From assembly GCA_000004985.1 (NCBI GenBank), contig GG738876.1: a stretch of DNA of 64,000 nucleotides; one strand, given 5' to 3'. A program made the translations under genes and the position numbers. This document shows, piece after piece, positions 5,418-35,056 of the stretch (the first letter of the stretch is position 1; every line of letters begins with the position of its first letter). The notes below the pieces were generated by a model that made no database searches, was not told where the DNA came from, and saw only the letters and a program-made list of their open reading frames with translations. This DNA comes from Naegleria gruberi (lineage: Eukaryota).

Positions 5418-5913
5418 CTAATCAATAATTGATTGTAAACTTTGTAAATGAGCCTCAATTCGAGAAGATTTCTTTTTCATATCTTCAATTTCCTTATTAA
5501 ATTGTTCAGTGAGAGGTTCCACTAGCATCATTTGTGATTTTTCAAATCGGAGTCGTATTGTTTTTTTCTCATTCTCTAGTGAACTAATTACTTTTTGAAT
5601 GGTGGCATGATTTTTTTTGGATTTGATGATTTCCTCTTGTTTTAATTCGAATAGTTCGAGAAGGTTCATTTTGGCGACTGTGTAATTCTCTGCTCGAATG
5701 ATCGTGAATGATTTTAAGTGGTACTTTCACAATAATTACAATTAATTTCGAATAACCTTCCAGCAGATTCCTCCAAAATATTTCGGAATTAATTAATTGA
5801 TCGTGAGTTGATTTGTCGATAGAGAGAATACTTCCAAGATGTTTCACGGAGAGGAATGTAAATATTTCTATTAGAATTTCTGTTGGTAAAGAGATTGACA
5901 TTTTTTTAAACAT
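5418..5913 (-). CDS. F-box protein with a C-terminal coiled coil, two exons
   Basis: ORF 5584..5913 starts with an F-box (LPTEILIEIFTFLSVKHLGSILSIDKSTHDQL), and its likely ATG follows aaaaaaa. The coiled-coil ORF 5418..5669 is in another frame. The frames join with a 67-nt GT-AG intron at 5690..5756 (weak donor gttatt) or a 79-nt variant. The junction is tentative. Confidence 0.55.
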
Positions 5914-6076
5914 GAAAACTAACCTAACACGTTCGAAACTTTAATTTTGAAGGTTTGGATGGCTTCATATCATTTTCTTGTCATGGTGATAGAACATGTA
6001 CCAATTTCTTCAAACACATAATAAACATTTCGTTTTTGTTTCATTGAAATCATAAAGATCTCAAGTACTTAGTTTT

Positions 6077-8014: not shown

Positions 8015-8089
8015 TTTTTTTAATAATTAAAAATAGAAATTATTTACAAAATTAAATAATTAAAAGTAAAATAAATATTATAAAATGTA

Positions 8090-9754: not shown

Positions 9755-10053
9755 TTTCAAAGATTTGGTGTGGGACTTTTTTTTTTGGTTTGAGATTTTT
9801 CAAAAATCGTTTTTCTAGAATGCTTCCAATTTGTTTTGACTGAATTTTGATGAGCCAAGCAAAGCGCGTAAAATAGTATTGTAACACAACAAAATTGTTC
9901 CATTGCACAATGAGAAGATATTGAGGGTAACCATCTAAAAGATAGGTTAGGACCTAGATATATGGTATAAGGCAGGTTGACTTGTATTGAAAATAAATAT
10001 TATTTAAATATTTACAATTTAATAAAATTTAAATTAAATATTCCTTTAAAAAA

Positions 10054-11635
10054 ATGAATCAAGATGAAACTCTAGAAAATTCATCACCATCATCATCCGC
10101 TCTACCCAATTCAACTTCCGATATTAATCCTTCAGCTCCTATTATTAACAATGGTAATAAGAGTTTCTTTGCATTTGAAAAGAGTCCCATCGACATTGAT
10201 AGAGTAAAATTAATTCCAACCCAACATGTTCTCCAATCTCAAGTTTATGAAGCCATTTCCATGATGAATGATAAGAATGATTTAAATAATAACAATAATA
10301 ATAAGGAAATATTATCATCATCATTAATGTTGAAGAATTTTCCATTGTTAGAATGTATTCCACGTGTTCCGATGACAACTTCCTCTCATCAGATGGTCTA
10401 CGTTCCGAATATGAGAAGTATTTTAGTATGGGGAGGAGCAAAGGTTGAAATTAGACCTTTGGATTATAATTTATTGAGTGGAAGATATGTTAATGATGAG
10501 AATAGTGAGAAGGAGATTGGATTGAATCATTGGATTGATTCGGATGGATTGAAGATTGATGTTTCTGAAGTGAATGATAATGTCTTGTCGAGTTATTTGG
10601 ATACTTCATTCTCATGTTTGGATTTGAAGAGTGAGAAATGGGAAACTAGGATACATTGCTCTTTTAAAGAGTTTGAATCATCTATTCAAATGGAAAGTGG
10701 AAAATGATGAAAATGTGGAGACTATTTTCAATTGTTCACCAACTTCTTCAAAGACAAGTCATTCATGTATTTACAATGATAAGGATAATTTAATTTATAT
10801 TTTGGGAGGTGTTTCACATGATGTGGAACAAACATTGAAAATATTTACTTTTTCATTACAAAATAGACAGTGGACTTGTTATAATTTCAAAGATACACTC
10901 AATCCTAATATCCCTTCTCCACATTTGAAAGGTCAAGTTGCCACCTATAGACCACAAACAAACACTATCCATGTCTATGGAGGTCAATATATAGATGACT
11001 ATGAATTAATATCAAACGATTGTATTTATGTTTACAATTGCACCACTAGTAAATGGGAAAATAGGTTGGTACCAGACTTACCTATTCTAGGTCGTTCCTT
11101 TTCCACCTGTGCATATTGCAAGAAGGCAGATTCCATGTTTGTATTTGGTGGTGTTCTAAATGTTATTGGAGAATTGACCAATGAATTGTGTCAGTACAGT
11201 TTTTCAGAAAACCAATGGACTGTCTACAAATACGCCTCCTCTAAGCCAATTAAACCAGTTTATGGACATTGTATGTGCTTAATTGACGATCGTTACATGT
11301 TCATTTATGGAGGTTGTGAACAAGCATTGACACCAATTCCTTCCTCTCAGTGTATTGTTTTTGACATTCTTGCTCAGAGATGGTACGATTTGAGTGAAGT
11401 TTTACAATTATTCAATTCAGTAGAAAATCCAGCTCAGATGCCACCTCTCAATTCTTCATCAATAATTTTCGATGAAAATAGTAGAAGAATTATCATTTAC
11501 GGAGGAAATGAAATTGAAAATGGAAACAAGACTTCCAATACCAGATTTTTATTCTTACTCAAAGATGGAAATAACAATTTAGAAAATATGATTGGAAAAC
11601 CAAAACTTTCAGATGTTCTAGTGGAGACCTTATAA
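10054..11635 (+). CDS. Kelch-repeat (beta-propeller) protein; frame break near 10630-10720
   Basis: aaaaaaATG start. Kelch hallmarks are ILVWGG, LIYILGG, IHVYGG, MFVFGG, MFIYGG and IIIYGG, each followed by ...W... strands. ORFs 10054..10707 and 10631..11635 overlap in different frames. Candidate GT-AG introns are 10631..10697 (67 nt) or 10570..10648 (79 nt); an assembly indel is also possible. Confidence 0.65.
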
Positions 11636-11712
11636 AATGTCTATTTTCTATGTGAAATTCTTGATACTTCCAGTATCCACTCGAACTTCGTTCTCATACA
11701 CAAACCAAAAAA

Positions 11713-12213
11713 ATGCCAAAACCTGCACCGAGCAGAACTAAATTAACAACATCAATCGTATCCCATCCCTATGCAAAAAAGAAGGAAGAAATTAATCAAA
11801 TCAATTCAAAAATTCAAAAACTCACCACTTTTCAGAAAAGAGTGTATGTTGCATTAACTAGAATTCCTTCGGGTCGGGTTACAACTTATGCCGGGTTGGC
11901 CAATTACTTGGATTGTAAATCGTCACAAGCAGTTGGTCAGGCATTGAAGAGAAATCCATTTGCTCCTGAAATTCCTTGTCATCGTGTTATAAAATCCAAT
12001 ACGTTTCATATTGGAGGATTTATGGGGAAAACCGAGGGAGATGAAATTGTAAAAAAGACAAGGTTATTGAAAGAGGAAGGAGTTGAATTTGATTCTAGTG
12101 GTGTGTTGATTGATAGAAAATTGATTCATTCCTTTGCAGATGATTCTGAATTGGAGAAGGATGACAAGGAGCTTGATTCACTTCTTTGTGATTTGTTAAA
12201 TTTCAAAAAATAA
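11713..12213 (+). CDS. MGMT: O6-methylguanine-DNA methyltransferase (methylated-DNA-protein-cysteine methyltransferase)
   Basis: The active-site motif PCHRV is present, inside the canonical context TTYAGLANYL...SSQAVGQALKRNPFAPEIPCHRVIKSN...GGF.G. aaaaaaATG start. Confidence 0.9.
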   Translation: MPKPAPSRTKLTTSIVSHPYAKKKEEINQINSKIQKLTTFQKRVYVALTRIPSGRVTTYAGLANYLDCKSSQAVGQALKRNPFAPEIPCHRVIKSNTFHIGGFMGKTEGDEIVKKTRLLKEEGVEFDSSGVLIDRKLIHSFADDSELEKDDKELDSLLCDLLNFKK

Positions 12214-12250
12214 TATTGTAAATAGATTCCAATATTTGTAAATAATTACA

Positions 12251-13326
12251 TTATTTCATTTCCATCTTTTCTTCATACTTTTTATATTCTATAATTTCGT
12301 AGAGCTCGCTTCTAGTTTGCATTGTAGAAAGTACAGGTTCAACAGTTCCATTCTTGGAAATTGATTCGTACACATTCTTTGCAGCTTTAGCCATAGCTCT
12401 AAATGCACTCAATGGGTGGAGAACCATTGAAACACCAACACTAGCCAATTCTTCTCCAGTAAACAGAGGTGTTTTACCTAAAATTTAGATATTGAAATAT
12501 TGAAATTCAAATCTTTGAAATATTCGAAATAATACTTACCAAATTCTGTAATATTGGCCAAAATTGGAACATTTACTTGCTCTACAAAGGCTTTATACTC
12601 TTCCAGAGTTGTGCATGCTTCAGGGAACAACATATCTGCACCAGCATTCACATACTGTTTTGCTCTTTCAATTGCCTTTTCCAATCCTTCAACTGCCAAC
12701 GCATCAGTTCTAGCAATAATGACAAAATCCGAATCCACCCTAGCTTCACAAGCTGCCTTAATTTTCTCCACCATTTCCTCCGTACTAACTATTTGCTTAT
12801 TAGGTAAATGTCCACAACGTTTCACACTTTGAATTTGATCCTCAATATGAATAGCTGCTACTCCAACTCGTTCCATCTCTCTTACACACCTCATCACATT
12901 CAAAACTCCTCCAAATCCTTTTTCAAAATTAATATTTATTTCCATTCAATATAAATATAATATTAAATATAATATAATAAATATAATAATTAAAATATCA
13001 ATTCCATAAAAACACATACCAGTATCCACATCCACAAGTAATGGCAAATTAGTACATGATGTAATTCTCCTTGCATCCTCCAAAACATCACTCAAATTAG
13101 TCATTCCCATGTCTGGTAATCCAAAACTAGCTGTGGCCACACCACTTCCACTCAAATAAATTGCCTGATGACCACATTCTTCTGCTAACAAGGCTGTAAA
13201 TGCATTGATGGTTCCGACAATGTGGAGTGGTTGTTTATTGTTTTGGTTTTGGTTTTGGAGGGAAAGTTTGAATTTCTTCCCTGGAGAGAGTTTGGTAGAG
13301 GGTGATTGGCAAATTGTGTTGAGCAT
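12251..13326 (-). CDS. Methylisocitrate lyase / PEP-mutase-isocitrate-lyase superfamily enzyme (PrpB-like), three exons
   Basis: Exons are 13326..13020, 12917..12540 and 12477..12251. The introns are 12918..13019 (102 nt, gtatgt...aaaaag) and 12478..12539 (62 nt, gtaagt...tttag). Both are phase 1 and split Gly codons. The spliced product reads ...LLVDVDTG|FGGVLNV...KRCGH...ANITEFG|[10 protein letters not shown]..., collinear with bacterial PrpB and including the K-[KR]-C-G-H signature. Confidence 0.85.
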
Positions 13327-13854: not shown

Positions 13855-15183
13855 ATGAATCATCTTAAACGATTGATTGTTTTGGCTCTTGTAGTTGTAC
13901 TCATGTTTGTCGTCTCACTTTCACATGCTCAAGACGAACAACAGGAAAACAACAATAAGAGACCACCAAGACCTTTACCTTCAGGTAGACCACCAAGACC
14001 ACATCCAGATCATTCTGGAGGGCGACCACCTCGCCCATTCCCATCTGGAGGAAGACCACCACGTCCAGATCATTCAGGAAGAAGACCAAGACCAGATCAT
14101 TCTGGTGAGAGACCACATCCACCAGGTCCACAACCAGATCATTCAGGAAGAAGACCACCAAGACCTGGTCCACATCCTGGTCAATCAGGATTACCACCAC
14201 GTTCTGATGAACAAGATGGTCAAAGTGAAAATAGACCTCGTCCACCAAGACCTCATCCAGAACGTTCAGGTGAAAGACCACATCCAAGACCTTTCCCATC
14301 TGGAGGTAGACCACCAAGACCAGACCACTCAGGAAGAAGACCAGGTCCACATCCAGATCATTCTGGAAGACCACCTCGTCCACATCCAAGACCAGAACCA
14401 TCTTCTGAAGATGACGAACACTCTGATAGACTTGAACAAGGAAACAGACCTCGTCCACCAAGACCAGATCGTTCAGGTTTGCCACCTCGTCCATTCCCAT
14501 CTGGAGGAAGACCACCAAGACCAGATCATTCAGGAAGAAGACCACATCCAAGACCTGAACACTCTGGTGAGAGACCACATCCAAGACCAGCTCACTCTGG
14601 TGAAAGACCACCAAGACCAGATCATTCAGGAAGAAGACCAAGACCAGGTCCACAACCAGACCAATCGGGAAGACCACCTCGTCCTTATCCAGAACATTCT
14701 GGTGAAAGACCAGGCCCACGTCCTCAACCACAAGAATCAACTTCATCCTTAATAGGTGAAAGACCACCAAGACCTGATAGATCTGGAAGACCACCTCGTC
14801 CATTCCCATCTGGAGGCAGACCACCAAGACCAGGCCCATCTGGAGGAAGACCAGGTCCTGGACCAGGTCCACAACCTGATGTTTCATCTGTTGAAGATCC
14901 ACTCATTGATGCTCAAAATAATACCAAGAATGAAATTCCAAATGGACCATCCAATGGTTCTGATGCTTTGGCCATTGTCTTTGGTGTTATTGGTGCAATT
15001 GTTGTCATGGCTGCTATTGCTCTTGTCATTGGAAGTGGAATTGCTGTTTTTGTTTTGAAGAAGAAGGGTTATTCACTCTCATTGAAGAAACATCAAATGT
15101 TGAGAGATGAAGACGAATTTGAATATCCACAACAAGACCAAACTCCAATTTACTCTGTCAATCAACCAGTTGCTCAAAATTAG
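13855..15183 (+). CDS. Type I membrane protein with a Pro/Arg/His/Gly-rich decapeptide-repeat ectodomain
   Basis: Signal peptide (LIVLALVVVLMFVVSLSHA). There are about 30 degenerate units of the types FPSGGRPPRP, DHSGRRPRP and HSGERPHPRP. After these come one TM helix (ALAIVFGVIGAIVVMAAIALVIGSGIAVFVL) and a 50-aa tail beginning KKKGYSL. Confidence 0.8.
   Translation: MNHLKRLIVLALVVVLMFVVSLSHAQDEQQENNNKRPPRPLPSGRPPRPHPDHSGGRPPRPFPSGGRPPRPDHSGRRPRPDHSGERPHPPGPQPDHSGRRPPRPGPHPGQSGLPPRSDEQDGQSENRPRPPRPHPERSGERPHPRPFPSGGRPPRPDHSGRRPGPHPDHSGRPPRPHPRPEPSSEDDEHSDRLEQGNRPRPPRPDRSGLPPRPFPSGGRPPRPDHSGRRPHPRPEHSGERPHPRPAHSGERPPRPDHSGRRPRPGPQPDQSGRPPRPYPEHSGERPGPRPQPQESTSSLIGERPPRPDRSGRPPRPFPSGGRPPRPGPSGGRPGPGPGPQPDVSSVEDPLIDAQNNTKNEIPNGPSNGSDALAIVFGVIGAIVVMAAIALVIGSGIAVFVLKKKGYSLSLKKHQMLRDEDEFEYPQQDQTPIYSVNQPVAQN
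13960..14890 (+). repeat. In-frame degenerate ~30-nt coding repeat array (P/R/H/G-rich)
   Basis: Near-identical nucleotide blocks such as agaccaccaagaccagatcattcaggaagaagacca recur throughout. The lack of stop codons produces long spurious ORFs in another frame and on the opposite strand. Confidence 0.8.
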
Positions 15184-22902: not shown

Positions 22903-24499
22903 ATGTATTGCAATAGTATGTAGGAGATGTTTTTGAAGATTGTTCTAATGTGTTGTGTTATTAATCCTTGTTGTTGTTTGTATTGTGTGATGCGGATTCT
23001 AGTTAGTGAAACAGCACCACTTCATCCTGTAATTTCTAAAAAGACTGGACACTTGTTTGAAAAGAGTTTGATCTTAAAGTATATTGAAGAACACGGAAAG
23101 TGTCCAATTACTGGACAAGATTTAACTCCTAATGATTTAATTGATGTAATTTGTAGGTATCGGATCTTTAATTTCTCTCATCATTGATCATCTTGTATTA
23201 TTGTTCATCTGAATAATTGTTTTAATAGATAAGAAAGGCACTGAATCATCGGTGAAGCCTAGTCAAGCTATTGCCAGTATTCCAAGCATGTTACAAACAT
23301 TCCAAAATGAATGGGACTCTGTAATGTTGGAAACTTTTACTTTGAGACAACAATTGGATAAATCAAGAAAGGAACTTTCACACTCACTTTATCAACATGA
23401 TGCTGCTTGCAGAGTTATTGCAAGATTAATGAAGGATAATGATGACACAAAGAGTATTCTCAGAAAAAATCAAAATAATATGGAAGATGAAACTTCTAAT
23501 ACTCTCTCAGAGACTGTTTCAGAAAGACTTACAAATACTGCAGAAATTCTCTCATCAAATAGAAAACAAAGAACTATTTCACCATCTCTTAAATCACCAG
23601 AGGAAATGTCAAATTCCAACACTCGTTTGTTAAATAGTGAATACAGACTCCATCAAGGAAAGGGTATTCAATCCATTGACGTTTTAAATTCATTGATTTT
23701 AACTGGAGGTAGAGATGGATCAATTTCAGTTTTTGATAAGCAATATAATACTTGTATTGGAGAGTTGAATTCTAATTCTGGACCTGTAAATTGTGCCATT
23801 TTCCACAATACTCCTGAATTTGCCTTTTCAAGTCACAATAGAGATGTTAAAATATGGTCTCTTAAGGATTCTACCTGTCTTCACACTATGGAAAAACTTC
23901 ATTTGGAACGTGTTACTGGACTTGCCTTGCATCAATCTGGTCACTACTTCTTGACATCATCTCTCGATCAGACATGGTCTTTCTGTGAAATTGAAACTGG
24001 AACTAGTTTGTTAAAGAGTAGCAATGATGAATCAGGATATACTTGTATTCAATTCCATCCAGATGGTTTATTATTTGGTACTGGTCTTCAAAATAATGCT
24101 GTAAAGATTTGGGACGTCAAGTCTCAACAAGTAGCTGCTACATTACAAGGACACTCTGGAGAAGTTACCTCACTTTCATTCTCTGAAAATGGTTACTATC
24201 TCGCTTCTTCATCAAAGGATAAGACTGTTCGTATTTGGGATTTAAGAAAAGTGGTACCTCTGCACACATTGCAATTCAATTCACCAGTTAGCAATGCTTC
24301 CTTCGACTATTCTGGTATTTATCTAGGTGCAACCTGTACTGATGGTACTGTTGGAGTTTATCAAGCTAAGGTTTGGACTGAACTCATTAATACAACAGTT
24401 CCAAACACCTGTTCTCCATCAAGCATTCGCTTTGGACCTAATGCTAGTTTTATTGCTGTTTCCGGATTGGAGGACAGCACTTTGCGATTCATTGAATAA
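22903..24499 (+). CDS. PRP19: Pre-mRNA-processing factor 19 (U-box E3 ligase with WD40 repeats), three exons
   Basis: Exons are 22903..22915, 23003..23152 and 23229..24499. Introns are 22916..23002 (87 nt, gtatgt...tctag) and 23153..23228 (76 nt, gtaggt...aatag). The spliced N-terminus MYCN|ISETAPLHPVISKKTGHLFEKSLILKYIEEHGKCPITGQDL matches the Prp19 U-box. SIPSMLQTFQNEWDSVMLETFTLRQQL...LYQHDAACRVIARL is the Prp19 coiled-coil signature. WD40 repeats follow. Confidence 0.9.
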
Positions 24500-26720: not shown

Positions 26721-28520
26721 ATGTCAACAATACTTTCGAATAGTTTATTCATCATTACTTTACTCTTGCTTGTTGTTTCGAATAGTTACCAATCAACCAA
26801 CAACAGCAACTTGACAACCGTTACTTCATTCTACTACCCACAATACGAATGTCTCAAACACACTCCAGTCAACCAATTCTACTATCCTTTCATGTTCACT
26901 CTCGATACTCCCTTCTATGATTATTGTAAATTGCCAACGATTGGAAATGCACCACAAGATTTCTATAAGGACTCTCAATTGATCAGTTCATTATTGGATG
27001 GTTCATTCTCTTGTGTTGATTTCCTGTGTTCCAATGACAAGGAATGGAACCTTTCGAATAAGACTCAGCTCACTACACTTGGAGTCATGTGGAATTATTG
27101 TTTTTATTGTAATACTGAGGGAAGAAATTCATCATCAATTAATTCGACAAGTGAAATATTTAGAGAAAAACTAATGTTGGGTCAATGTGATGCATTTTCA
27201 ATTGCAAATTCATCGTTGAATTTCTTGGAGAATTTCAATCGAGTTTCGAATAGGCATTGTAATGGAGATAGCTATGTGGAGAGACGTCATTTACCATTCC
27301 TTGAATATTACTTTTTCCAAACAGATTACTTTATCAATTCGTTTGCTAGATATAGAAAGAATAATTTCAATGAAGTTTATTCTGATGCAAAGACTTACAT
27401 TTCCAAAGTTAAACTTCAATCCATTCTCACCTTTTATTTTAAAGATTTATTCGAAAGGTCAACACTTGATTCAGCCCCTCTCAACATTCCAGTTTCATGT
27501 TGGTGTGATTATGGATCTAGCTCCAAAACCATTGGTTTTCAATGCTACGATTATTATCAGGGATGGCAATTATTATGTACCTATAGAATATGTGTTGTGA
27601 TATTTACTCTATTATATGGCAGTTGTTCATTGTTTTATTCATTGGTTTTGGTGGTACCGAGAATTGTGGAGAGAATTTCCTCATTCAAACAGAGAAATGA
27701 TATTAGATTAATGGAAACTAATTGTAAGAAACCTCTCTATTTCATTAGACATTTTTTAGATATTGTAACACAACCTCCAATTTTCTTTACATTATCTGCA
27801 TTCTTTGGAATGTTGGAAAACTGTTTCAGATTTCTATTTAATTTTAGTGTTTTTAATGGATTTTTCAATTCTTTCTATTCGGGAATTTTTAGATCGATTT
27901 CAATTGGTTTGGCATGTTGTGGATATTCTGCATTGGTTATTTCATGGGCTCATGTGATTGATTTGGCAAAGAGAAAGACATCCTCTGCTCCCTTTTCAAG
28001 TCAATTGTCAAAATTGAATGTTGTAATCTTGACAATTTGTTACATTGGCATGTTAATATCAGGAATTGTGAGTGCAATCATTTTGATTGTTGTGAAGAAC
28101 TCATCTACTGGTTATATCTTCTTGACAGTTGCTGTACTGATCTATCTCTTTACATTTGTAGTTGGCTTTGCATTTTATGGAATCAAGATTTTACTTTCCC
28201 TCAGAAAAACCTCAGATACTAGCTCAATTATTGAGTATCGTTTCACCAAATTCATTCTATTAGAAACGGTCTTCTTCCTTATTGGTTGGATTGTTTCACT
28301 CTTCATGTTAGTTTCGTACGTGTTTGGTTTCGATTCGATGGGACTTTTCTGGGGACTCAATAGAAATATTTTCATGGATACCATGTTGAATGCAGTTTCC
28401 ATTCTCTCATGTTACATTACTTTCAATAGGAATGCATTCGAAATGGTGTATGGAAAGAAGTTTCTTTCATTGTGTTCATGTGAAAAGAATAATGATACTA
28501 CAAGTGATAATAAACAATAA
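26721..28520 (+). CDS. Seven-transmembrane receptor-like protein with a Cys-rich N-terminal ectodomain
   Basis: The ATG at 26721 follows aaaaaga. There is a signal peptide (LFIITLLLLVVSNSYQS). An ectodomain of about 270 aa has many Cys residues and N-x-S/T sites. Seven hydrophobic helices follow. No family could be assigned by eye. Confidence 0.6.
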   Translation: MSTILSNSLFIITLLLLVVSNSYQSTNNSNLTTVTSFYYPQYECLKHTPVNQFYYPFMFTLDTPFYDYCKLPTIGNAPQDFYKDSQLISSLLDGSFSCVDFLCSNDKEWNLSNKTQLTTLGVMWNYCFYCNTEGRNSSSINSTSEIFREKLMLGQCDAFSIANSSLNFLENFNRVSNRHCNGDSYVERRHLPFLEYYFFQTDYFINSFARYRKNNFNEVYSDAKTYISKVKLQSILTFYFKDLFERSTLDSAPLNIPVSCWCDYGSSSKTIGFQCYDYYQGWQLLCTYRICVVIFTLLYGSCSLFYSLVLVVPRIVERISSFKQRNDIRLMETNCKKPLYFIRHFLDIVTQPPIFFTLSAFFGMLENCFRFLFNFSVFNGFFNSFYSGIFRSISIGLACCGYSALVISWAHVIDLAKRKTSSAPFSSQLSKLNVVILTICYIGMLISGIVSAIILIVVKNSSTGYIFLTVAVLIYLFTFVVGFAFYGIKILLSLRKTSDTSSIIEYRFTKFILLETVFFLIGWIVSLFMLVSYVFGFDSMGLFWGLNRNIFMDTMLNAVSILSCYITFNRNAFEMVYGKKFLSLCSCEKNNDTTSDNKQ

Positions 28521-29047
28521 TGTGATTGGTAAAGGATTGAATATTCTTGATCTCTGTTTCAATTTTCGTTCAAACTTGCACCTCATCTCCCATTTTCCTT
28601 GAAATTCAATTGTTCGGAGATGAGTGGGAGTTATTAATTGAAAATTCCGCAGTAGTAAGCACAATCTGTTCACAAGTCCATTACTTCTCCTCATGAAATC
28701 ATCAATTAATATTGAAAATTATTTGGATGTAGATATTGCAATTTCCTTCGTGTTCTCCATCTTTATTTCTCTGTGCATTATCAAAAACTACACACAGGTG
28801 CGCCCAATGATTGATCAATATTGAACCTTTTTTCATTCCTCCCACACGTGTGTGCTCCCTATCAATCATTAAGAGCATCAACATGATCCATTCAACAAAT
28901 GCAAGAGAGGCTCTCTTGAAAATTTTGGCGCGCAACTAAAATCTATGTGATTGTGTATTTGAGACTGATGGGAAGATGCTTTGAAAAAATATCTTTTTAA
29001 AATAATTTTAAATAAATTATTGTTGAAGAAAATTGATTCTAGAAAAA

Positions 29048-32017
29048 ATGTCTTCGTACGGAACGCACGGCGATGGTGGAGATGGGTTGGAATCGAGTAA
29101 ACAACTCAATGTGCTCCAAAAGATTGCTAGAAATAGAGTGGTGAATATTGTTGGTGCGATAATATTATCAATTATTTTATTATTGAGTATTGGATGTTGT
29201 GTTGTTGTTGGTGTGCTTCATTCACATTTGCTTTTCCAATGTGGATTTGCTGAATTTATATTTATGTTACTTCTTGAAGGCGCTACATTCTTCTTCTGTA
29301 TTTATCACTTGTACAATATTTACAAGTTTTTCAAGACTAGAGCACGACACTCTGGTAAGAAGGGAATTTCCGCTATTGTTGCTGCTTTATGTTCATCAGA
29401 AGTAAATCAATACAATGCATATTCTGATTCCAGACAAGGAAATGAAGAAGATGATTTTGATGATGAAGAAGATGATGAAGATGACGAAGAAGAGGAGGAA
29501 GAAGAAAGCAAATTTTCCAAGTTTGTTGTCGGCTTTTTGAAGATTGCTGCCAATGCTATTGCTGTTTTATGTTTCATCATTTTGGTACTTTTCACAGTTG
29601 TTGTCGTTCCATTGCAACAACAAACCTACCCAACTTATAACGGTACTCTTAAACTTCCAAAGTTTACACCAAAGGGATCTTCTGCTCCTACAATTTCACG
29701 TGAAAGTAATGGTGTTGTTCACATCAAGGCTTCACACGATTATGATTTATATTTCGCACAAGGTGTAGCTGTTGCTCAAGATCGTTTGTGGCAATTGGAA
29801 TTTAATCGTAGATTGTCAAATGGTATTTTGGCTGAAGTTGCTGGTGCTGATGCTGTCAATGTTGACAGTTGGTTCAGAACTCTCGGATTTGCTCGTTCTG
29901 CTGCCAACATTTTACCAACCATTGATGCTGAAACTCTTTCATTCATTCAAGCATATTGTGATGGTATTAACTCTTATATTAATAGTAATCCACCACTTCA
30001 ACCTGAATTTGTTCTCCTCAACACTAAACCAGTTGAATGGACTCCAAGTGATGTTATTGCTTATATGAAGTTTGTTTCATTCTCTCTTTCTGATAATATG
30101 GAAAAGGAAGTTTGGAGATTCAAGATGATGCAAAGAAATATCACAAAGGACAGAGTTAACGAATTGGTTCCTTTCTACCCAACTGATATGCCAACTATTT
30201 TGAGTTTGGAAGAAATGAATTTGCAAAACGTTCCAGTTGAAGAAAGAGAAAAGATTGAAAAGGCTCAACAAGATGATTCTGCTGCTTTTATTCCAAAGGC
30301 TATTCACAATTTGACCATGTCTGTCATGGAAGAAATGTTCGCTTCATTGGAAGAATCTGGTGAATGGGGTAAACAAGCTGTCAGATCAGTTTTGAAGGGT
30401 ATGGTTGCTCCAGATATCACTGGTAACAAGGCCTCAAACAATTGGGTTCTCGGAACCAAGATTACAGCAAACAATGGATCATTGTTGGCTAACGATCCTC
30501 ATTTGGATTTGACTGCTCCAGGTATTTGGTATTTGGCTCATTTGGAAGGTCCAACTCACAATGTTATTGGTTCTACTTTTGTTGGTCTTCCAGGTATTGT
30601 TATTGGTAAGAATGATTTCATTTCATGGGGTGTTACTACTGGTCTTGTTGATGCTCAAGATTTGTACGTCATGTCCGAAGTTGAAGAAGGTAAAACTTAC
30701 AACTACAATGGTAAAGTTCTCCAATATGAAACTCGTACCGAAACTATTAATGTTAAGGGAGCTGCTGCCAAGACTATTACTGTTAAGGAATCTGTCTACG
30801 GTCCAGTTATTAATGACCACTACCAAGTTGATGGTAACGTTTTGTGTTTGAAGTCTTTGACTACCTACACTAATGATACCACACTCCAAGCTTTCCTCAA
30901 GTTGAACAGAGAAGCTAAGGATTGGAACTCATTTGTTGATGTTGTCTCCTTGTTCGTTTCCCCATCCCAAAACTTTGTCTTTGCTGACAAGAGTGGTAAC
31001 ATTGGTTACTATTTGGCTGGTTTGGTTCCAATTAGAAAGGAAGGTCACAATGGTAGATTCCCAGTTATTGGTGATGGTAGCTATGATTGGCAAGGATTTA
31101 TTCCAGCTGCTGAAAAGCCAAGCGTTTACAATCCAAAGAAGGATTACATTGCTTCTGCAAACAACAGAGTTACTCCTGTTGGTTACAAGTACAGTATTAC
31201 CCAAGATTGGTACTCTTTCTATAGAGCTAGCAGAATTGTCTCATTGATTGAAACTGCTATTGAAAAGGGAACTCCACTCAATTTTGAATACATGAAGAAG
31301 ATGCAACACGACGTTCACTCACCAGTCTTTGATCAATTCAAGTTTGTTTTTGAAGCTATTCCAAAGTTCAGAAATCTCACTGAAAATAAGGAAAAGTTGA
31401 GAGAAAAGTTGATTAATTGGGACGGTGATGAAATTTTGTACTCTCAATCTGCTTCCATCTTTGAAATGTGGTACAAGATTATGGGTAACCTCACCAAGGT
31501 TGAAACTGTCAATAGATGGTCTTTCGGTCCATATCTTTACAATGCCTTGAAGAATGGTGATAGTGCTTGTGAAAATTATCACAACACTACTTGTATGTTG
31601 TTCGCTATTGACAGCTTTGAAAATGCCATTGATGCTCTTGAAGCCACTTACGGTTCTATTCCATTGTGGGGTTCTGATATTCACGAATCTGAATTCCCTA
31701 ACCCGGTAATGGATAATACTGTTCTCAAATGTTTGGCTGGAGCTACTCGTACTACTGTTGGTGGTTCTTCAACCATTAATGTTGGTGAAACTCAATATCC
31801 TGCCCTCAATTCAAGATGGGGTGTTTCTTATAGACAAGTTGTTGATTGGCGAGGCAATCAAGCTTCATTCATCATTCCACTCGGTCAATCTGGTAACTTC
31901 TTATCTCCTCTTTACACCAACTTGTTAGAAATGTGGTCTGACCCAACTGGTCAATACTTGGACATGAAATCTGCTGGTTACACTGCAACCAATACCCTTT
32001 CTCTTTCCTCTCAATAA
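29048..32017 (+). CDS. Penicillin/acyl-homoserine-lactone acylase family Ntn-hydrolase (peptidase S45), anchored by three N-terminal TM helices
   Basis: The ATG at 29048 follows agaaaaa. Family motifs are YFAQGVAVAQDRLWQLEFNRR and the beta-chain start S-NNWVLG...LLANDPHLDLTAPGIWYLAHL. The nucleophile Ser codon is at 30434..30436. Three N-terminal TM helices flank an acidic run (EEDDFDDEEDDEDDEEEEEEE). Codon use is typical of the host. Confidence 0.85.
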   Translation: MSSYGTHGDGGDGLESSKQLNVLQKIARNRVVNIVGAIILSIILLLSIGCCVVVGVLHSHLLFQCGFAEFIFMLLLEGATFFFCIYHLYNIYKFFKTRARHSGKKGISAIVAALCSSEVNQYNAYSDSRQGNEEDDFDDEEDDEDDEEEEEEESKFSKFVVGFLKIAANAIAVLCFIILVLFTVVVVPLQQQTYPTYNGTLKLPKFTPKGSSAPTISRESNGVVHIKASHDYDLYFAQGVAVAQDRLWQLEFNRRLSNGILAEVAGADAVNVDSWFRTLGFARSAANILPTIDAETLSFIQAYCDGINSYINSNPPLQPEFVLLNTKPVEWTPSDVIAYMKFVSFSLSDNMEKEVWRFKMMQRNITKDRVNELVPFYPTDMPTILSLEEMNLQNVPVEEREKIEKAQQDDSAAFIPKAIHNLTMSVMEEMFASLEESGEWGKQAVRSVLKGMVAPDITGNKASNNWVLGTKITANNGSLLANDPHLDLTAPGIWYLAHLEGPTHNVIGSTFVGLPGIVIGKNDFISWGVTTGLVDAQDLYVMSEVEEGKTYNYNGKVLQYETRTETINVKGAAAKTITVKESVYGPVINDHYQVDGNVLCLKSLTTYTNDTTLQAFLKLNREAKDWNSFVDVVSLFVSPSQNFVFADKSGNIGYYLAGLVPIRKEGHNGRFPVIGDGSYDWQGFIPAAEKPSVYNPKKDYIASANNRVTPVGYKYSITQDWYSFYRASRIVSLIETAIEKGTPLNFEYMKKMQHDVHSPVFDQFKFVFEAIPKFRNLTENKEKLREKLINWDGDEILYSQSASIFEMWYKIMGNLTKVETVNRWSFGPYLYNALKNGDSACENYHNTTCMLFAIDSFENAIDALEATYGSIPLWGSDIHESEFPNPVMDNTVLKCLAGATRTTVGGSSTINVGETQYPALNSRWGVSYRQVVDWRGNQASFIIPLGQSGNFLSPLYTNLLEMWSDPTGQYLDMKSAGYTATNTLSLSSQ

Positions 32018-32195: not shown

Positions 32196-33590
32196 ATGAC
32201 CAATGCCAGTTCTTCCACAACACGAACAACAAGTGCAAGCTACAGACAGCAAAAATTGAAAAGTAAACAAATAGATAATCAACTGTACGGAAATTTATCA
32301 GCACAACTTGTCTCCACCAACAACAATCAGCTCCAACTTGAACAATTACAAAAAACAACGAGACCTCTTCGAATATTATTGATGGGACCAAGAAATTGCG
32401 GAATTAAAACCTTTCTAATGAATGCTCTTGATATGGAAGCTGATGATTTCATGATTCGAACCATGTTATCAATGTCTCATAGAGTGAATCAAATTTCGAA
32501 TAGTAATCTTGCTGGACTTGATGATACAGAACTTACACGTCCATTGACTTTTCAACAAAAGGCAGAGGGTCTCTTTTCAGAGAAGAATAGAAATCTGACG
32601 CTCAATGTGTACATGTATATTTGTAGAGGAATCAAAGTTTTTGTAAAATGGGAATGGAAATATTTTGAAAGATTGAAGAGGAAAATTCATGAAAATTATG
32701 AACATCATCATTATCATGAGGAACATTTTGATTTGGTTTATAATTGGGAAGGTGACGAAGATGGTAAATTATTGGATGAGTTGATAAATGATTGTCGAGA
32801 GCAGAAACAATTGAATTCCAAAATTATTTCAATTTATTCCAAAATTGTGAATTATGGAAAAAAGGAAGTAATGAACGAATTTTACAATTCATTATTAAGA
32901 TCGACAAATATTAGATATTTGGATAATATTCAATAGTATGTTTGTCATAAGTTCAAATTTCATTCAAAAAATTTCAGTTTTTTCACACTTGATGCTTTCA
33001 ATAGAATTACTTCCAATGATTACAAGCCACTCAACCAAGATTTGCTCAAATCTCATCATCCAGACGATAAGGGAATTATTTCAATTCGGAGGGATGAGTT
33101 TGAATTTATTGACATTACAGGTCAATTGAATGAAAGAAGAAAGTGGATTCATCAATTTTCCAACTCTATTGATGTTATAATGTTCTTCATTCCAATTTCA
33201 GATTACAATCTAATCAATCCACTGACTGGAATGAATAGACTTGATGAGGCTTTTCATTTATACAATGAAATTCAAACAACGAAACTTTTTGAGAGAGCTG
33301 ACATTTCAATCATGTTAACAAAAATGGATTTGTTTAAAAAGAAACTAGTTTTGGATCCAATTTCGAATTATTTTGAAAAGTTTCAAGCGTCGAATGGAAA
33401 TTTAAAAGAAACTATGGAAGTGATGAGAGGAATATTTAGTCAAAATTTTGGGGAAGATTCGAATTATAGGAGACTGTTTGTGCATCAGGTTGATTTGACT
33501 GATGTGAATGATTTTAAAGTGGTTTATAGAGGAATTTCCAGTTCTCTTCGATTGGGAACTTTCATTTCAATTTTTGCTAGAAGGAGATGA
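32196..33590 (+). CDS. Divergent heterotrimeric G-protein alpha-subunit-like protein, two exons
   Basis: The ATG at 32196 follows aaaaaaacaaa. Exon 1 is 32196..32935, the intron is 32936..32977 (42 nt, gtatgt...tttcag) and exon 2 is 32978..33590. The splice restores ...RYLDNIQ|YFFTLDAFNRITSNDYKPLNQDLLKSHH...FEFIDITGQLNERRKWIHQF...DVIMFFIPISDYN...NRLDEAFHLYNEI...MLTKMDLFKKKL. This is collinear with G-alpha (DVGGQRSERKKWIHCF, NRM.ES, NK.DLF). Confidence 0.8.
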
Positions 33591-33613: not shown

Positions 33614-35056
33614 TTATTGAGAATTTTGATGTTTCATAACCAAACCATGAATCTTTTTAACTCTCATTTCCTTGAGGAATTCCATCGAAAGTTTGAACCT
33701 GTAATGAGAATCCAACATTACAATTTCAATTTCCTTCTCCAAGAAATCAAACAAATCGTCTGGAAGCGACGAAATTTGACGATTCTTATACAATTCAATT
33801 TGAAACAAAACATCATGTGTGGACTTCTTATCAATATTTACAGATTTAGGGCCATTAACATTCAGGAATTCTTCATATATTTCCTGAGCTAATTGGAATT
33901 TCTTTGCTTCAACAACTTCTAATTCAGTTTCGAGTTCTTGAGTAGTTGAAAGATTTTTCTTTCTCTTGGTTGTTGGTTGACCAACACTGAGAGAAGTATT
34001 GGATTTGGAAGACTGATCAACAACAGAGATGGTGGAAGGAGTTGCGTTATTGGAAACTTCAGATAATTCGAAAGAAACGCTACCTAAACTATTAGAACTT
34101 TCAGTTTCTTCACTCAATGTTTGAACCAATTCAATTTGATATTCACACAATCGCTTGTACTGCTGAACTTTTTCAAGGAATTCAAAGTTTTCAGAGTTAA
34201 ATTCCTTCTTACAATGATTCTTAAAGAGATTTCTCAATCTGTCATTATTCATGGTGTGTGAAATGTCAACTGCTAGTGCTTCTCTTAATTTTTGAACATT
34301 GTTGGAGTCTGATCTAATAGCCAACCCAAAAACAAAGATAATGACTGGAACTGTAACTACAACTGCCAAGCAAATAATTGATAATGAAGTTATGGACATA
34401 GCATTAGTGATTTTTGACACTTGTTCTTGAGAAGCAAGTACATAATCAAGTACAACATCTTGTGCAGTTCTAAAAGTGTTTCTTCTTGCGATATAAGTGG
34501 CGGAAGTAAGCAATCGAACAGCTTCCGTAAAGTTTCCATCTCTAATATTCGAAACAGCTTGAGAATCAGTATCAGTCAAATAATTAACAATTCCCTGCAA
34601 ATTATTTCTATACTGCTGCGAAATACTCTGAGGTATCTTTTGAAGCATATTTTCAGTCAACTCATCATTCACTTTCGAATAATTATTATAATAAGCCAAA
34701 TATCCCTCATTTCCCGAATAGGCAGCCACCAACGTATAAGCTTGAATATAGGCAGTATACGTAGATACCTTCGCTCTAGTAGCCAACAAATCAATATCCT
34801 CATTCATCTGACTATTTTCACTATAAATCAGCAAACCAAGGAGAATGAGGAAAGTAATGGTATTGAGGACCATGGCAACCATTGCAAAGATTTTAATGAA
34901 ATTCAATTCGAGTTTGAAGAAACAGCAGTGGACTGTGAAGGTTTTTGGCTGTTTTTGATGTTTACGAAAGGAATCGTCGAGAGAGGATTGCTGGCGTTTG
35001 AGAGGAGGTGAAGATTCAATGCTTGTTTCGATTGGTTTCTTTGTTTCGTTTTCCAT
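33614..35056 (-). CDS. Membrane receptor-like RGS protein (TM, ~140-aa ectodomain, TM, RGS domain)
   Basis: The hydrophobic helices are at about aa 55-78 and 219-246. The RGS box is at about aa 268-460. Its start is LRNLFKNHCKKEFNSENFEFLEKVQQYKRL and its end is AQEIYEEFLNVNGPKSVNIDKKS...IEIVMLDSHYRFKLS. A Ser/Thr-rich insert of about 70 aa splits the box. Confidence 0.85.
   Translation of the reverse strand: MENETKKPIETSIESSPPLKRQQSSLDDSFRKHQKQPKTFTVHCCFFKLELNFIKIFAMVAMVLNTITFLILLGLLIYSENSQMNEDIDLLATRAKVSTYTAYIQAYTLVAAYSGNEGYLAYYNNYSKVNDELTENMLQKIPQSISQQYRNNLQGIVNYLTDTDSQAVSNIRDGNFTEAVRLLTSATYIARRNTFRTAQDVVLDYVLASQEQVSKITNAMSITSLSIICLAVVVTVPVIIFVFGLAIRSDSNNVQKLREALAVDISHTMNNDRLRNLFKNHCKKEFNSENFEFLEKVQQYKRLCEYQIELVQTLSEETESSNSLGSVSFELSEVSNNATPSTISVVDQSSKSNTSLSVGQPTTKRKKNLSTTQELETELEVVEAKKFQLAQEIYEEFLNVNGPKSVNIDKKSTHDVLFQIELYKNRQISSLPDDLFDFLEKEIEIVMLDSHYRFKLSMEFLKEMRVKKIHGLVMKHQNSQ

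What the first reader, a model, noticed from the sequence alone, without database searches (positions are those of the whole stretch)
29048..32017. Membrane-anchored penicillin/AHL-acylase (Ntn-hydrolase S45) in a eukaryote, with its catalytic serine intact
Seen in the sequence:
- The catalytic region carries the family hallmarks AQDRLWQLEFNRR and the autoprocessing/nucleophile site ...GNKA|SNNWVLG...LLANDPHLDLTAPGIWY. The Ser codon is at 30434..30436.
- In place of a bacterial signal peptide there are three TM helices with a poly-Asp/Glu linker (nt ~29440..29505).
- Codon use matches the host's strongly biased set (AAG, GGT, CCA, GTT, TCT, TTG), and there is an A-run before the ATG.

Established knowledge: this family is overwhelmingly bacterial. 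It includes penicillin G acylase, cephalosporin acylases, and the PvdQ/QuiP/AhlM acyl-homoserine-lactone acylases.

Inference: this is an ancient, fully domesticated horizontal acquisition. In a bacterivore it could degrade AHL quorum signals or beta-lactam and lipopeptide compounds at the cell or phagosome surface.
Basis: partly seen in the sequence, partly recalled or inferred. Interest (0 to 1): 0.6.

Follow-up and report, generated by a model that had tools for sequence, protein, structure and literature searches.

The report
Membrane-tethered penicillin-acylase homologue in Naegleria
This is a real, intact gene of the amoeba Naegleria gruberi for a bacterial-type "penicillin acylase" enzyme tied to a membrane by three helices; the gene is already annotated, but the membrane module, shared by many uncultured eukaryotes, appears undescribed.

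Summary
Window 29048..32017 (+) is one intron-less 989-codon ORF. It matches Pfam Penicil_amidase at E = 8.6e-180, and Ser463 (TCA, 30434-30436) aligns with the nucleophile Ser beta-1 of solved penicillin G acylases.

The His, Asn, Arg and Ca-site Asp residues are all conserved. An AlphaFold2 model (pLDDT 87.8) matches solved S45 structures.

The contig is eukaryotic. Its neighbours are Prp19, an intron-split G-alpha gene and an RGS gene, and codon use is host-like.

The gene is not new. The database holds it as 'penicillin amidase [Naegleria gruberi]', in a 917-aa model that lacks the first 72 residues. Orthologues exist in N. fowleri and Willaertia magna, and papers mention them.

What I add:
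- The three-helix N-terminal module marks a broad clade, 57 of the 148 nearest 50%-identity cluster representatives analysed.
- Three clade members checked lie next to eukaryote-type genes.
- The clade has two private conserved cysteines, Cys65 in the TM1-TM2 turn and Cys895 in the beta subunit, which suggests a tethering disulfide.

The closest bacterial relatives are Deinococcota-type and cyanobacterial-type acylases (41-44% identity for the former). A bacterial origin is plausible, but my trees do not resolve it. The substrate is unknown.

The parts
29041..29047 (+). A-rich leader (AGAAAAA) directly before the start codon
   Evidence: Sequence read.
29048..32017 (+). Complete intron-less CDS of a 989-aa S45 (penicillin amidase family) precursor, stop codon included
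   Evidence: ORF. Pfam PF01804 E = 8.6e-180. 100% identical over 917 aa to 'penicillin amidase [Naegleria gruberi]'.
29144..29218 (+). TM1 (about aa 33-57), predicted to run from cytosol to outside
   Evidence: Kyte-Doolittle peak 3.01. Model helix 30-64. 4 K/R in the 15 residues before it and none in the following loop.
29240..29242 (+). Cys65 codon in the short turn between TM1 and TM2; a clade-specific conserved cysteine
   Evidence: Cys in 54 of 65 aligned eukaryote-type sequences; the column is absent in 70 bacterial ones. Nearly invariant C25 in alignment A3. Most apparent gaps have a Cys on inspection.
29240..29311 (+). TM2 (about aa 65-88), weaker hydrophobicity with a Glu inside, predicted to return to the cytosol
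   Evidence: Kyte-Doolittle 1.65-1.95. Model helix 67-101. 4 K/R in the 15 residues after it.
29264..29266 (+). Met73, where the public 917-aa gene model starts (inside TM2); that model lacks the first 72 residues
   Evidence: P0001 begins MLLLEGATFFF. The N. fowleri and W. magna proteins begin MSSYGTH / MSGYGTH, like the ATG at 29048.
29312..29524 (+). Predicted cytosolic linker (aa 89-159): basic stretch, short helix, then a disordered acidic run
   Evidence: 9 K/R and 22 D/E. pLDDT below 50 at aa 116-145. Length and composition vary across the clade.
29444..29506 (+). Poly-Asp/Glu run (aa 133-153)
   Evidence: Long D/E runs occur only in the heterolobosean-like group.
29525..29617 (+). TM3 (about aa 160-190), a signal-anchor placed where bacterial relatives have their single N-terminal hydrophobic segment
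   Evidence: Kyte-Doolittle peak 3.24. Model helix 155-191. Comparison of N-termini.
29633..30307 (+). Alpha-subunit part of the S45 domain (about aa 196-420), includes AQDRLWQLEFNRR
   Evidence: Matches PGA and cephalosporin-acylase alpha chains. pLDDT above 90.
30308..30433 (+). Probable spacer (pro-peptide) between the alpha and beta parts (about aa 421-462), ending in the Ala462 | Ser463 processing site
   Evidence: Low pLDDT (48-55) with two short helices. Poorly conserved in A1/A4. The residue before Ser463 is Ala or Gly throughout the alignment.
30434..30436 (+). Ser463 codon (TCA): N-terminal nucleophile of the beta subunit
   Evidence: Aligns to residue 1 of E. coli PGA beta chains. 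Invariant in 120, 148 and 138 sequences.
30434..32014 (+). Beta subunit (aa 463-989)
   Evidence: pLDDT mostly above 95.
30500..30502 (+). His485, at the position of Gln beta-23 of E. coli PGA
   Evidence: Ungapped alignment to PGA beta. 64/65 and 70/70 conserved.
30650..30661 (+). Asp535 and Asp538 (first and last codons of this span), at the positions of the Ca-site Asp beta-73 and beta-76
   Evidence: 65/65 conserved for both in the eukaryote-type set.
31160..31162 (+). Asn705, at the position of the oxyanion-hole Asn beta-241
   Evidence: Invariant in A1. 64/65 and 70/70 conserved.
31223..31234 (+). Arg726 (aligns with Arg beta-263) and Arg729 (first and last codons of this span) in the YRASRI motif
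   Evidence: MAFFT alignment with PGA beta. R726 invariant and R729 near-invariant.
31568..31594 (+). Cys841 and Cys849 (first and last codons of this span), a cysteine pair shared with bacterial relatives (probably a disulfide)
   Evidence: 59/65 eukaryote-type for both; 55/70 and 54/70 bacterial.
31730..31732 (+). Cys895 (VLKCLAG): cysteine conserved only in the eukaryote-type clade; proposed partner of Cys65
   Evidence: 61/65 against 0/70. The two clade members with Ser here (P0197, P0237) also lack the hairpin Cys.

Best explanation
What it is. This is the Naegleria gruberi gene for an active, membrane-tethered Ntn-hydrolase of peptidase family S45 (the penicillin amidase family).

Shown here:
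- The catalytic domain is complete and folds like solved S45 enzymes.
- The gene sits among eukaryotic genes and uses host codons.
- The same three-helix N-terminal module is conserved in a large clade, and the three further members whose context I checked lie next to eukaryote-type genes.

Inferred mechanism:
1. The 110.5-kDa precursor inserts with its N-terminus in the cytosol.
2. TM1 crosses outward. A very short turn carrying Cys65 faces the lumen or the cell exterior. TM2 returns to the cytosol.
3. A basic-then-acidic disordered linker stays in the cytosol.
4. TM3 acts as a signal-anchor, so the 89-kDa enzyme domain (aa 196-989, which holds all eight N-glycosylation sequons) lies outside the cytosol.
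5. As in bacterial family members, the precursor should cleave itself between Ala462 and Ser463. This frees Ser463 as nucleophile and opens the active-site cleft that the spacer occupies.
6. The alpha part (51.7 kDa with the helices and spacer) stays anchored by TM3. The 58.9-kDa beta part is held by the usual alpha/beta interface and, as I propose, by a Cys65-Cys895 disulfide to the hairpin.
7. The enzyme then hydrolyses an amide bond between an acyl group and an amine, in a compartment that meets bacterial products (cell surface, phagosome or lysosome).

Substrate. It is not known. An N-acyl compound with an aliphatic chain (acyl-homoserine lactone, lipopeptide or similar) fits the aliphatic pocket residues better than benzylpenicillin does.

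Origin. Most likely a bacterial gene acquired before the heterolobosean radiation, not by Naegleria itself.
For: Family and chemistry:
- Pfam E = 8.6e-180.
- Best solved relatives are D-succinylase 7eby (E = 3.6e-57), penicillin G acylases and cephalosporin acylases.
- Ser463 = beta-Ser1, His485 = beta-23, Asp535/Asp538/Asp720 = the Ca-site Asp beta-73, beta-76 and beta-252, Asn705 = beta-Asn241.
- Arg726 = beta-Arg263.
- These residues are invariant or nearly so in 65 eukaryote-type and 70 bacterial sequences.

Fold:
- AlphaFold2 mean pLDDT 87.8, pTM 0.85.
- Foldseek probability 1.00 to S45 structures, target TM-scores 0.78-0.86 for the best of them.

Eukaryotic gene:
- Prp19, a G-alpha gene with a GTATGT...AG intron, and an RGS gene as neighbours.
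- Host-like codon use.
- Orthologues in N. fowleri and W. magna with the same N-terminus.
- The N. fowleri protein was detected by mass spectrometry.

Topology:
- Hydropathy and model helices agree.
- 4 K/R before TM1, 0 in the turn, 4 after TM2.

Clade and module:
- 57 of the 148 representatives analysed carry a multi-helix N-terminal extension.
- They group together in neighbour-joining trees.
- Three further members lie beside CENP-C/IFT57, Snf7/phosphodiesterase, and cohesin STAG/synaptobrevin genes.
- None of the best 80 bacterial genome hits extends N-terminal of query residue 154.

Cysteine pair.
Against: - No experiment shows autoprocessing, activity, topology or localisation.
- TM2 is only weakly hydrophobic and contains a Glu. 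No dedicated topology predictor was available.
- The disulfide could not be checked, because the structure tool returns no coordinates. The covariation rests on only two double-loss sequences.
- The N. fowleri protein was found in gel bands of about 100 and 140 kDa. That is at or above precursor size rather than subunit size. Those bands also held proteins such as actin, so this says little either way.
- Bootstrap support for monophyly of the eukaryote-type clade, and for its attachment to bacteria, is very low (0.23; 0.015-0.02 with outgroups).
- The lineages of most clade members are unknown.
Confidence: 0.8

Rival explanations
1. The stretch is bacterial contamination of the assembly, or a bacterial gene mis-joined to eukaryotic DNA.
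For: The family is overwhelmingly bacterial: 17,482 cluster representatives at E < 0.001, most of them of bacterial type.
Against: - G+C, GC3 and codon use match the neighbours.
- The neighbours are Prp19, an intron-containing G-alpha gene and an RGS gene.
- Orthologues with 73% and 55% identity exist in N. fowleri and W. magna on contigs of 730 kb and 188 kb.
- The N-terminal hairpin is absent from the best 80 bacterial genome hits.
Confidence: 0.01
2. A recent horizontal transfer specific to Naegleria, from a bacterium it feeds on.
For: Naegleria is a bacterivore. The best bacterial genome hit is 40% identical (Meiothermus).
Against: - The gene is shared with Willaertia and with more distant heterolobosean-like metagenome sequences at 41-47% identity.
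- N. fowleri has a second, 33%-identical paralogue with the same architecture.
- Dozens of 50%-identity clusters share the module and the two private cysteines.
- Codon use is fully adapted to the host.
Confidence: 0.04
3. The eukaryote-type clade is not derived from bacteria by a single transfer. Either it is an old eukaryotic gene inherited vertically with many losses, or it has spread between eukaryotes, or there were several independent transfers.
For: - The clade is deep and diverse, with many members only 30-36% identical to Naegleria.
- Neighbour-joining trees do not nest it in any bacterial group with support.
- With midpoint rooting the root falls inside it.
Against: - Bacterial diversity of the family is far larger and includes all the distant branches (PGA, cephalosporin acylases, PvdQ).
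- With PGA as outgroup, the point estimate nests the clade among bacteria, next to the Deinococcota-type and cyanobacterial-type group.
- The Deinococcota-type group is consistently the nearest by identity: 41-44% to Naegleria against 31-35% for other bacteria, and 37-43% to P0015.
- The shared module and cysteine pair argue against several independent transfers.
- No relatives were found in viral contigs that could have carried the gene between hosts.
Confidence: 0.12
4. The enzyme is specifically a quorum-quenching acyl-homoserine-lactone acylase that destroys prey signals.
For: - Many members of this ~800-aa branch of the family are annotated or characterised as AHL acylases.
- Characterised AHL acylases exist in Deinococcus (QqaR) and Anabaena (AiiC), the phyla of the nearest bacterial group. 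This is a lead only, because those sequences were not compared here.
- Pocket positions are aliphatic: Leu486, Ile519, Val529.
Against: - NCBIfam PvdQ equivalog scores 47.7 bits against a cut-off of 950.
- PvdQ and MacQ are among the weaker structural matches.
- The best solved relative is a D-succinylase.
- The 2017 AHL-acylase review lists no characterised eukaryotic S45 AHL acylase.
Confidence: 0.25
5. The enzyme is a true penicillin G acylase (beta-lactam side-chain hydrolase), as its database name says.
For: The database name, and significant similarity to PGA beta chains (E about 1e-37).
Against: - The residues that line the phenylacetyl pocket of E. coli PGA are replaced: beta-Phe24 to Leu486, beta-Phe57 to Ile519, beta-Ser67 to Val529, beta-Ala69 to Thr531.
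- Identity to PGA is only about 22%.
- The name comes from the Pfam family, not from an assay.
Confidence: 0.05
6. The protein has lost enzymatic function and serves as a membrane receptor or structural protein.
For: The added membrane module and long cytosolic linker could suggest signalling.
Against: Nucleophile, His, oxyanion Asn, both Arg and the Ca-site Asp residues are kept in essentially all 65 clade members. That is the pattern expected under selection for catalysis.
Confidence: 0.03

Closest known systems
D-succinylase (DSA) of Cupriavidus sp. P4-10-C, PDB 7eby/7ea4
   Same: Best solved relative by sequence (E = 3.6e-57) and by fold (Foldseek E = 3e-46, target TM-score about 0.8). It is a single-chain precursor with the same Ser nucleophile, the LANDPH motif, and the Asn and Arg residues.
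   Different: Only 23-24% identical. It is a soluble bacterial enzyme without the three-helix module, and its N-succinyl-D-amino-acid specificity cannot be transferred to this protein.
Bacterial ~760-840-aa 'penicillin acylase family proteins' of Deinococcota (Meiothermus, Oceanithermus), Rubrobacter and cyanobacteria
   Same: These are the nearest bacterial sequences. The Deinococcota-type and Rubrobacter sequences are 41-44% identical to the Naegleria domain, and a Meiothermus genome hit is 40%; cyanobacterial members are somewhat lower. Domain order is the same, with a single N-terminal hydrophobic segment where TM3 lies.
   Different: They have no TM1-TM2 hairpin, no cytosolic linker and no Cys at position 895. 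They are mostly uncharacterised. The one locus inspected sits beside a MacB-type exporter.
E. coli / Kluyvera penicillin G acylase (EC 3.5.1.11)
   Same: Same family, fold and catalytic scheme: autoprocessed alpha/beta heterodimer, Ser beta-1, Asn beta-241, Arg beta-263 and a Ca site.
   Different: About 22% identical. It has Gln rather than His at beta-23, the aromatic phenylacetyl pocket is not conserved, and it is a soluble periplasmic enzyme.
AHL acylases PvdQ, QuiP, HacB (Pseudomonas) and MacQ (Acidovorax)
   Same: Same family. Like the protein here, PvdQ has a residue aligned with Ser beta-1 and the surrounding motifs. These enzymes face the outside of the cytoplasmic membrane.
   Different: The protein is far below the PvdQ equivalog threshold. 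These are weaker structural matches. They use signal peptides, not a multi-helix anchor.
Penicillin-amidase genes reported in other eukaryotes (N. fowleri Q25548, Willaertia magna K01434, Mnemiopsis ML02771a, Rhynchopus diplonemids)
   Same: Same Pfam family in eukaryotes, and in the last two cases interpreted as horizontally acquired. N. fowleri and W. magna are true orthologues with the same architecture.
   Different: None of those papers describes the membrane module, the clade or any activity. I could not check whether the ctenophore and diplonemid genes belong to the same clade.

Membership tests
Peptidase S45 / Pfam PF01804 Penicil_amidase | Full-length match to the family profile above the curated threshold | tested here: met
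   600.5 bits against a cut-off of 21.3, profile positions 3-667 of 675.
Peptidase S45 / Pfam PF01804 Penicil_amidase | Ser nucleophile that becomes the N-terminus of the beta subunit | tested here: met
   Ser463 aligns to residue 1 of many PGA and cephalosporin-acylase beta chains. Invariant in all alignments.
Peptidase S45 / Pfam PF01804 Penicil_amidase | Oxyanion-hole Asn (beta-241 in E. coli PGA) and Arg beta-263 | tested here: met
   Asn705 and Arg726 align to them. Both are invariant or near-invariant.
Peptidase S45 / Pfam PF01804 Penicil_amidase | Calcium-site acidic residues (beta-Asp73, beta-Asp76, beta-Asp252) | tested here: met
   Asp535, Asp538 and Asp720. Conserved 65/65, 65/65 and 58/65 in the clade.
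Peptidase S45 / Pfam PF01804 Penicil_amidase | Ntn-hydrolase fold of the S45 type | tested here: met
   Model pLDDT 87.8. Foldseek probability 1.00 to 50 or more S45 chains.
Peptidase S45 / Pfam PF01804 Penicil_amidase | Autoproteolytic maturation into an alpha/beta heterodimer | not testable with these tools
   Only the sequence requirements are met: Ala-Ser junction and a low-confidence spacer.
PvdQ-type AHL acylase (NCBIfam NF051460 equivalog) | Score above the equivalog cut-off | tested here: not met
   47.7 bits against 950, and only aa 460-661 match.
AHL acylases in general (functional class) | Hydrolysis of N-acyl-homoserine lactones | not testable with these tools
   Needs an enzyme assay. 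The 2017 review lists no characterised eukaryotic S45 example.
Penicillin G acylase (EC 3.5.1.11) | Phenylacetyl-binding pocket residues beta-Phe24, beta-Phe57, beta-Ser67 and beta-Ala69. That these four define the pocket is from my own knowledge of the E. coli enzyme. | tested here: not met
   Replaced by Leu486, Ile519, Val529 and Thr531.
Eukaryote-type three-helix S45 clade (defined here) | TM1-turn-TM2 hairpin plus a variable linker plus TM3, all before the S45 domain | tested here: met
Eukaryote-type three-helix S45 clade (defined here) | Private cysteines in the hairpin turn and at the position of Cys895 | tested here: met
   Cys65 and Cys895 are present. Frequencies are 54/65 and 61/65 in the clade against 0/70 in bacteria.

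The most novel reading that the evidence does not exclude
Microbial eukaryotes possess an old, widespread and so far undescribed family of membrane-tethered S45 acylases. In this family a dedicated two-helix hairpin is disulfide-bonded (Cys65-Cys895) to the beta subunit. After self-cleavage, both halves of the enzyme would then stay fixed to the outer face of the plasma, phagosomal or lysosomal membrane. There the enzyme would strip acyl chains from bacterial signals or lipopeptides met during feeding.
Probability: 0.25. Interest if true: 0.55.

Novelty: new variant of a known kind. Interest (0 to 1): 0.3.

Why it matters
The gene itself adds nothing new. It is an already annotated member of a well-understood enzyme family, and bacterial-type enzymes are common in Naegleria.

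Three things are worth a note:
- The public N. gruberi gene model is 72 residues too short and hides the membrane hairpin.
- The three-helix architecture and two private cysteines define a large eukaryote-type branch of a family treated as bacterial.
- The 2017 AHL-acylase review lists no eukaryotic S45 enzyme, and I found no paper that assays one. An assay of the Naegleria or N. fowleri ectodomain would show what phagotrophic protists do with this enzyme.

The N. fowleri orthologue is found in extracellular vesicles and in antigenic gel bands, which gives a small medical angle.

Tried and rejected
- Exact look-up of the 989-aa protein found nothing, because the public model is shorter.
- Cluster look-ups gave no organism names for the metagenome members.
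- The contig of P0022 could not be read.
- A scan of viral contigs found no relative, so giant viruses are not supported as carriers.
- A search with the IFT57-like part of a neighbour gene on contig L001, meant to name the organism, returned two unnamed hits.
- The AlphaFold-database fold library that would have given organism names was not available.
- Neighbour-joining bootstraps were too weak to use. The split between eukaryote-type and bacterial sequences had support 0.23. With PGA and D-succinylase as outgroups, on 251 columns, clade support was 0.015-0.02. I therefore rely on the shared architecture and cysteines, not on the tree, for the unity of the clade.
- The HMMER pairwise alignment placed Arg729 one residue off from beta-Arg263. 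MAFFT placed Arg726 opposite it, and I adopted the latter.
- The gene neighbourhood of the closest bacterial homologue (Yip1 and a HlyD/MacB-type exporter) gave no firm clue to the substrate.
- In alignment A2 the hairpin column was misaligned, so its cysteine counts were ignored.

Full report
**1. The observation**

The region holds one uninterrupted ORF on the + strand. It runs from the first ATG after an upstream stop (29048) to TAA at 32015-32017 and encodes 989 residues.

- AQDRLWQLEFNRR is at aa 243-255.
- GNKA|SNNWVLG is at aa 459-469, with the Ser463 codon TCA at 30434-30436.
- LLANDPHLDLTAPGIWY is at aa 479-495.
- The 21-residue Asp/Glu run is at nt 29444-29506.
- AGAAAAA precedes the ATG.

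Kyte-Doolittle hydropathy gives three hydrophobic segments, at about aa 33-57, 65-88 and 160-190. Codon use is host-like. RSCU correlates at r = 0.84 with the other long ORFs of the window (their own range is 0.73-0.96) and GC3 is 0.31. The AAG preference (0.83) is stronger than in most neighbours, which may reflect high expression.

**2. What it is**

The protein matches Pfam Penicil_amidase (PF01804) almost end to end, with E = 8.6e-180 over aa 215-974. Against solved structures, the best sequence relatives are D-succinylase 7eby (E = 3.6e-57), then penicillin G acylases, cephalosporin acylases and, weakly, PvdQ.

In an ungapped alignment with the E. coli penicillin G acylase beta chain, the key positions correspond as follows:

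| This protein | E. coli PGA position | Role |
|---|---|---|
| Ser463 | Ser beta-1 | nucleophile |
| His485 | beta-23 | Gln in E. coli PGA |
| Asp535, Asp538, Asp720 | Asp beta-73, beta-76, beta-252 | calcium site |
| Asn705 | Asn beta-241 | oxyanion hole |
| Arg726 | Arg beta-263 | aligned with MAFFT |

All of these are invariant or nearly so in alignments of 120, 148 and 138 homologues.

An AlphaFold2 model built on 120 sequences has mean pLDDT 87.8 and pTM 0.85. Low confidence is confined to the N-terminal tail, the acidic linker and a stretch just before Ser463. Foldseek matches the model to S45 structures with probability 1.00, again with D-succinylase first. The catalytic machinery is therefore intact, and the low-confidence stretch at about aa 421-462 has the position of the spacer peptide that other family members excise.

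**3. Whose gene it is**

The protein is 100% identical over 917 residues to 'penicillin amidase [Naegleria gruberi]'. The window's G+C of about 33% is uniform.

The neighbours are eukaryotic:
- a Prp19 splicing factor (23288-24496);
- a G-alpha gene whose two exons (32196-32936 and 33042-33590) are separated by a short GTATGT...AG intron;
- an RGS protein on the opposite strand (33617-35056).

Contamination is excluded.

The public model starts at Met73, inside the second helix. The N. fowleri (1002 aa, 73% identical) and Willaertia magna (1008 aa, 55%) proteins start MSSYGTH / MSGYGTH, exactly like the ATG at 29048. The N. gruberi model is therefore 72 residues too short.

**4. Already known**

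- The N. fowleri homologue is an old UniProt entry, Q25548 'penicillin amidase homolog'. Mass spectrometry found it in a ~140-kDa band of extracellular vesicles and a 100-kDa antigenic band.
- Two W. magna papers mention the gene.
- A diplonemid preprint says the gene occurs in several protists.
- A ctenophore study lists a penicillin acylase among its horizontal transfers.
- None of these describes architecture, clade or activity.
- A 2017 review of AHL acylases lists no eukaryotic S45 enzyme.

**5. The membrane module is a clade character**

Bacterial relatives have one hydrophobic segment directly before the domain. The Naegleria protein has TM3 at that place, preceded by a TM1-TM2 hairpin and a linker.

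A full scan of 1.84 billion cluster representatives found 17,482 family members at E < 0.001. I analysed 148 sequences: most of the 150 best representatives plus a few named relatives. Of these, 57 carry a multi-helix extension of 95-400 residues and 69 are of the bacterial one-segment type. The two kinds separate almost cleanly in neighbour-joining trees.

Three further members of the extended kind lie next to eukaryote-type genes:
- CENP-C and IFT57 on a 563-kb contig;
- Snf7 and a cyclic-nucleotide phosphodiesterase;
- cohesin STAG and synaptobrevin.

A fourth member comes from EukProt. None of the best 80 bacterial genome hits extends beyond query residue 154 towards the hairpin. Long Asp/Glu runs occur only in the heterolobosean-like group; elsewhere the linker is variable.

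**6. Two private cysteines**

| Cysteine | Location | Eukaryote-type clade | Bacteria |
|---|---|---|---|
| Cys65 | turn between TM1 and TM2 | 54/65 aligned | column absent in 70 |
| Cys895 | beta subunit | 61/65 | 0/70 |
| Cys841 / Cys849 | beta subunit | 59/65 each | 55/70 and 54/70 |

Most of the apparently missing Cys65 cases have a cysteine there on inspection. The only two clade members with Ser at position 895 (P0197, P0237) also lack the hairpin cysteine.

The flanks of TM1 and TM2 follow the positive-inside rule: 4 K/R before TM1, none in the turn, 4 after TM2. The turn and the catalytic domain should therefore lie on the same, non-cytosolic side.

I propose a Cys65-Cys895 disulfide that keeps the beta subunit on the membrane after self-cleavage. 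This is an inference. The structure tool gives no coordinates, so I could not measure the distance.

**7. Origin**

The closest bacterial sequences are ~760-840-aa acylases of Deinococcota, Rubrobacter and cyanobacteria. The Deinococcota-type and Rubrobacter sequences are 41-44% identical to Naegleria, against 31-35% for proteobacterial ones. They are 37-43% identical to a distant clade member. The best GTDB genome hit is a Meiothermus MAG at 40%.

With penicillin G acylase and D-succinylase as outgroups, the point estimate nests the eukaryote-type clade among bacteria, next to that group. Bootstrap values are close to zero. Without outgroups, the split between the two kinds has support 0.23.

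A bacterial origin before the heterolobosean radiation is the most economical reading, but these tools have not demonstrated it. No relatives were found in viral contigs.

**8. Function**

The chemistry (amide hydrolysis by an N-terminal Ser) is secure by homology. The substrate is not.
- The protein is far below the PvdQ equivalog threshold.
- It has aliphatic residues where penicillin G acylase has its aromatic pocket.
- Its best solved relative is a D-succinylase at 23-24% identity.
- The nearest bacterial locus inspected lies beside a MacB-type exporter, which is suggestive at most.

An N-acyl compound of bacterial origin, met at the cell surface or in the phagosome, is my preferred guess. 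An acyl-homoserine lactone is one candidate (about 0.25).

**9. Verdict**

The finding is accurate but describes an annotated gene of a well-known family, so its interest is modest. The parts that appear unreported are the truncated public model, the breadth of the eukaryote-type clade, and the conserved hairpin with its cysteine pair.

Noticed in passing
window 29048-29263 (compared with the public model, which starts at 29264): The public N. gruberi 'penicillin amidase' model (917 aa) starts at Met73, inside the second helix. The in-frame ATG 216 nt upstream gives an N-terminus matching N. fowleri and W. magna, so the model is truncated by 72 residues.
   Followed up: yes
window 13855-15183 (+): A 442-aa ORF with a signal-peptide-like start, about 300 residues of Pro/Arg/His-rich repeats (GGRPPRPDHSGRRP...) and a C-terminal hydrophobic anchor. 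It causes the local G+C peak (0.41-0.47) and has GC3 of only 0.13. An antisense ORF at 13901-14887 is probably an artefact of the repeat.
   Followed up: partly
window 32196-33590 (+) and 33617-35056 (-): A G-alpha gene (two exons, short GTATGT...AG intron at about 32937-32977) lies tail to tail with a gene for an RGS-domain protein that has hydrophobic segments. The two are only about 25 nt apart, a possibly functional pairing.
   Followed up: partly
window 26721-28520 (+): A 599-aa ORF just upstream has a Cys-rich N-terminal part and several hydrophobic segments but no Pfam match at E < 0.001. It may be a lineage-specific receptor-like membrane protein.
   Followed up: no
P0013 (N. fowleri FDP41_002730, 1236 aa) and P0177: N. 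fowleri has a second, 33%-identical paralogue with the same hairpin motif (HNHLLFVCG) and a ~290-residue extra N-terminal tail. I did not check whether N. gruberi has it.
   Followed up: no
L003 (ENA contig ctg95888l), around 10001-13102: This eukaryote-type acylase gene sits among ankyrin-repeat genes, a KilA-N domain gene and many short unknown ORFs. That pattern recalls giant-virus-derived regions, although the viral contig scan found no acylase relatives.
   Followed up: partly
L005 (Meiothermus MAG), 5869-12171: The closest bacterial homologue is followed on the same strand by a Yip1-domain gene and a HlyD / ABC / MacB-type exporter. From my own knowledge, this resembles the pvdQ - pvdRT-opmQ arrangement in Pseudomonas.
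   Followed up: partly
P0243 (907 aa) and P0254 (1277 aa): Two sequences inside the bacterial part of the tree also carry multi-helix N-terminal extensions (3 and 8 segments) but lack both private cysteines. These appear to be independent fusions of an S45 domain to membrane modules.
   Followed up: partly
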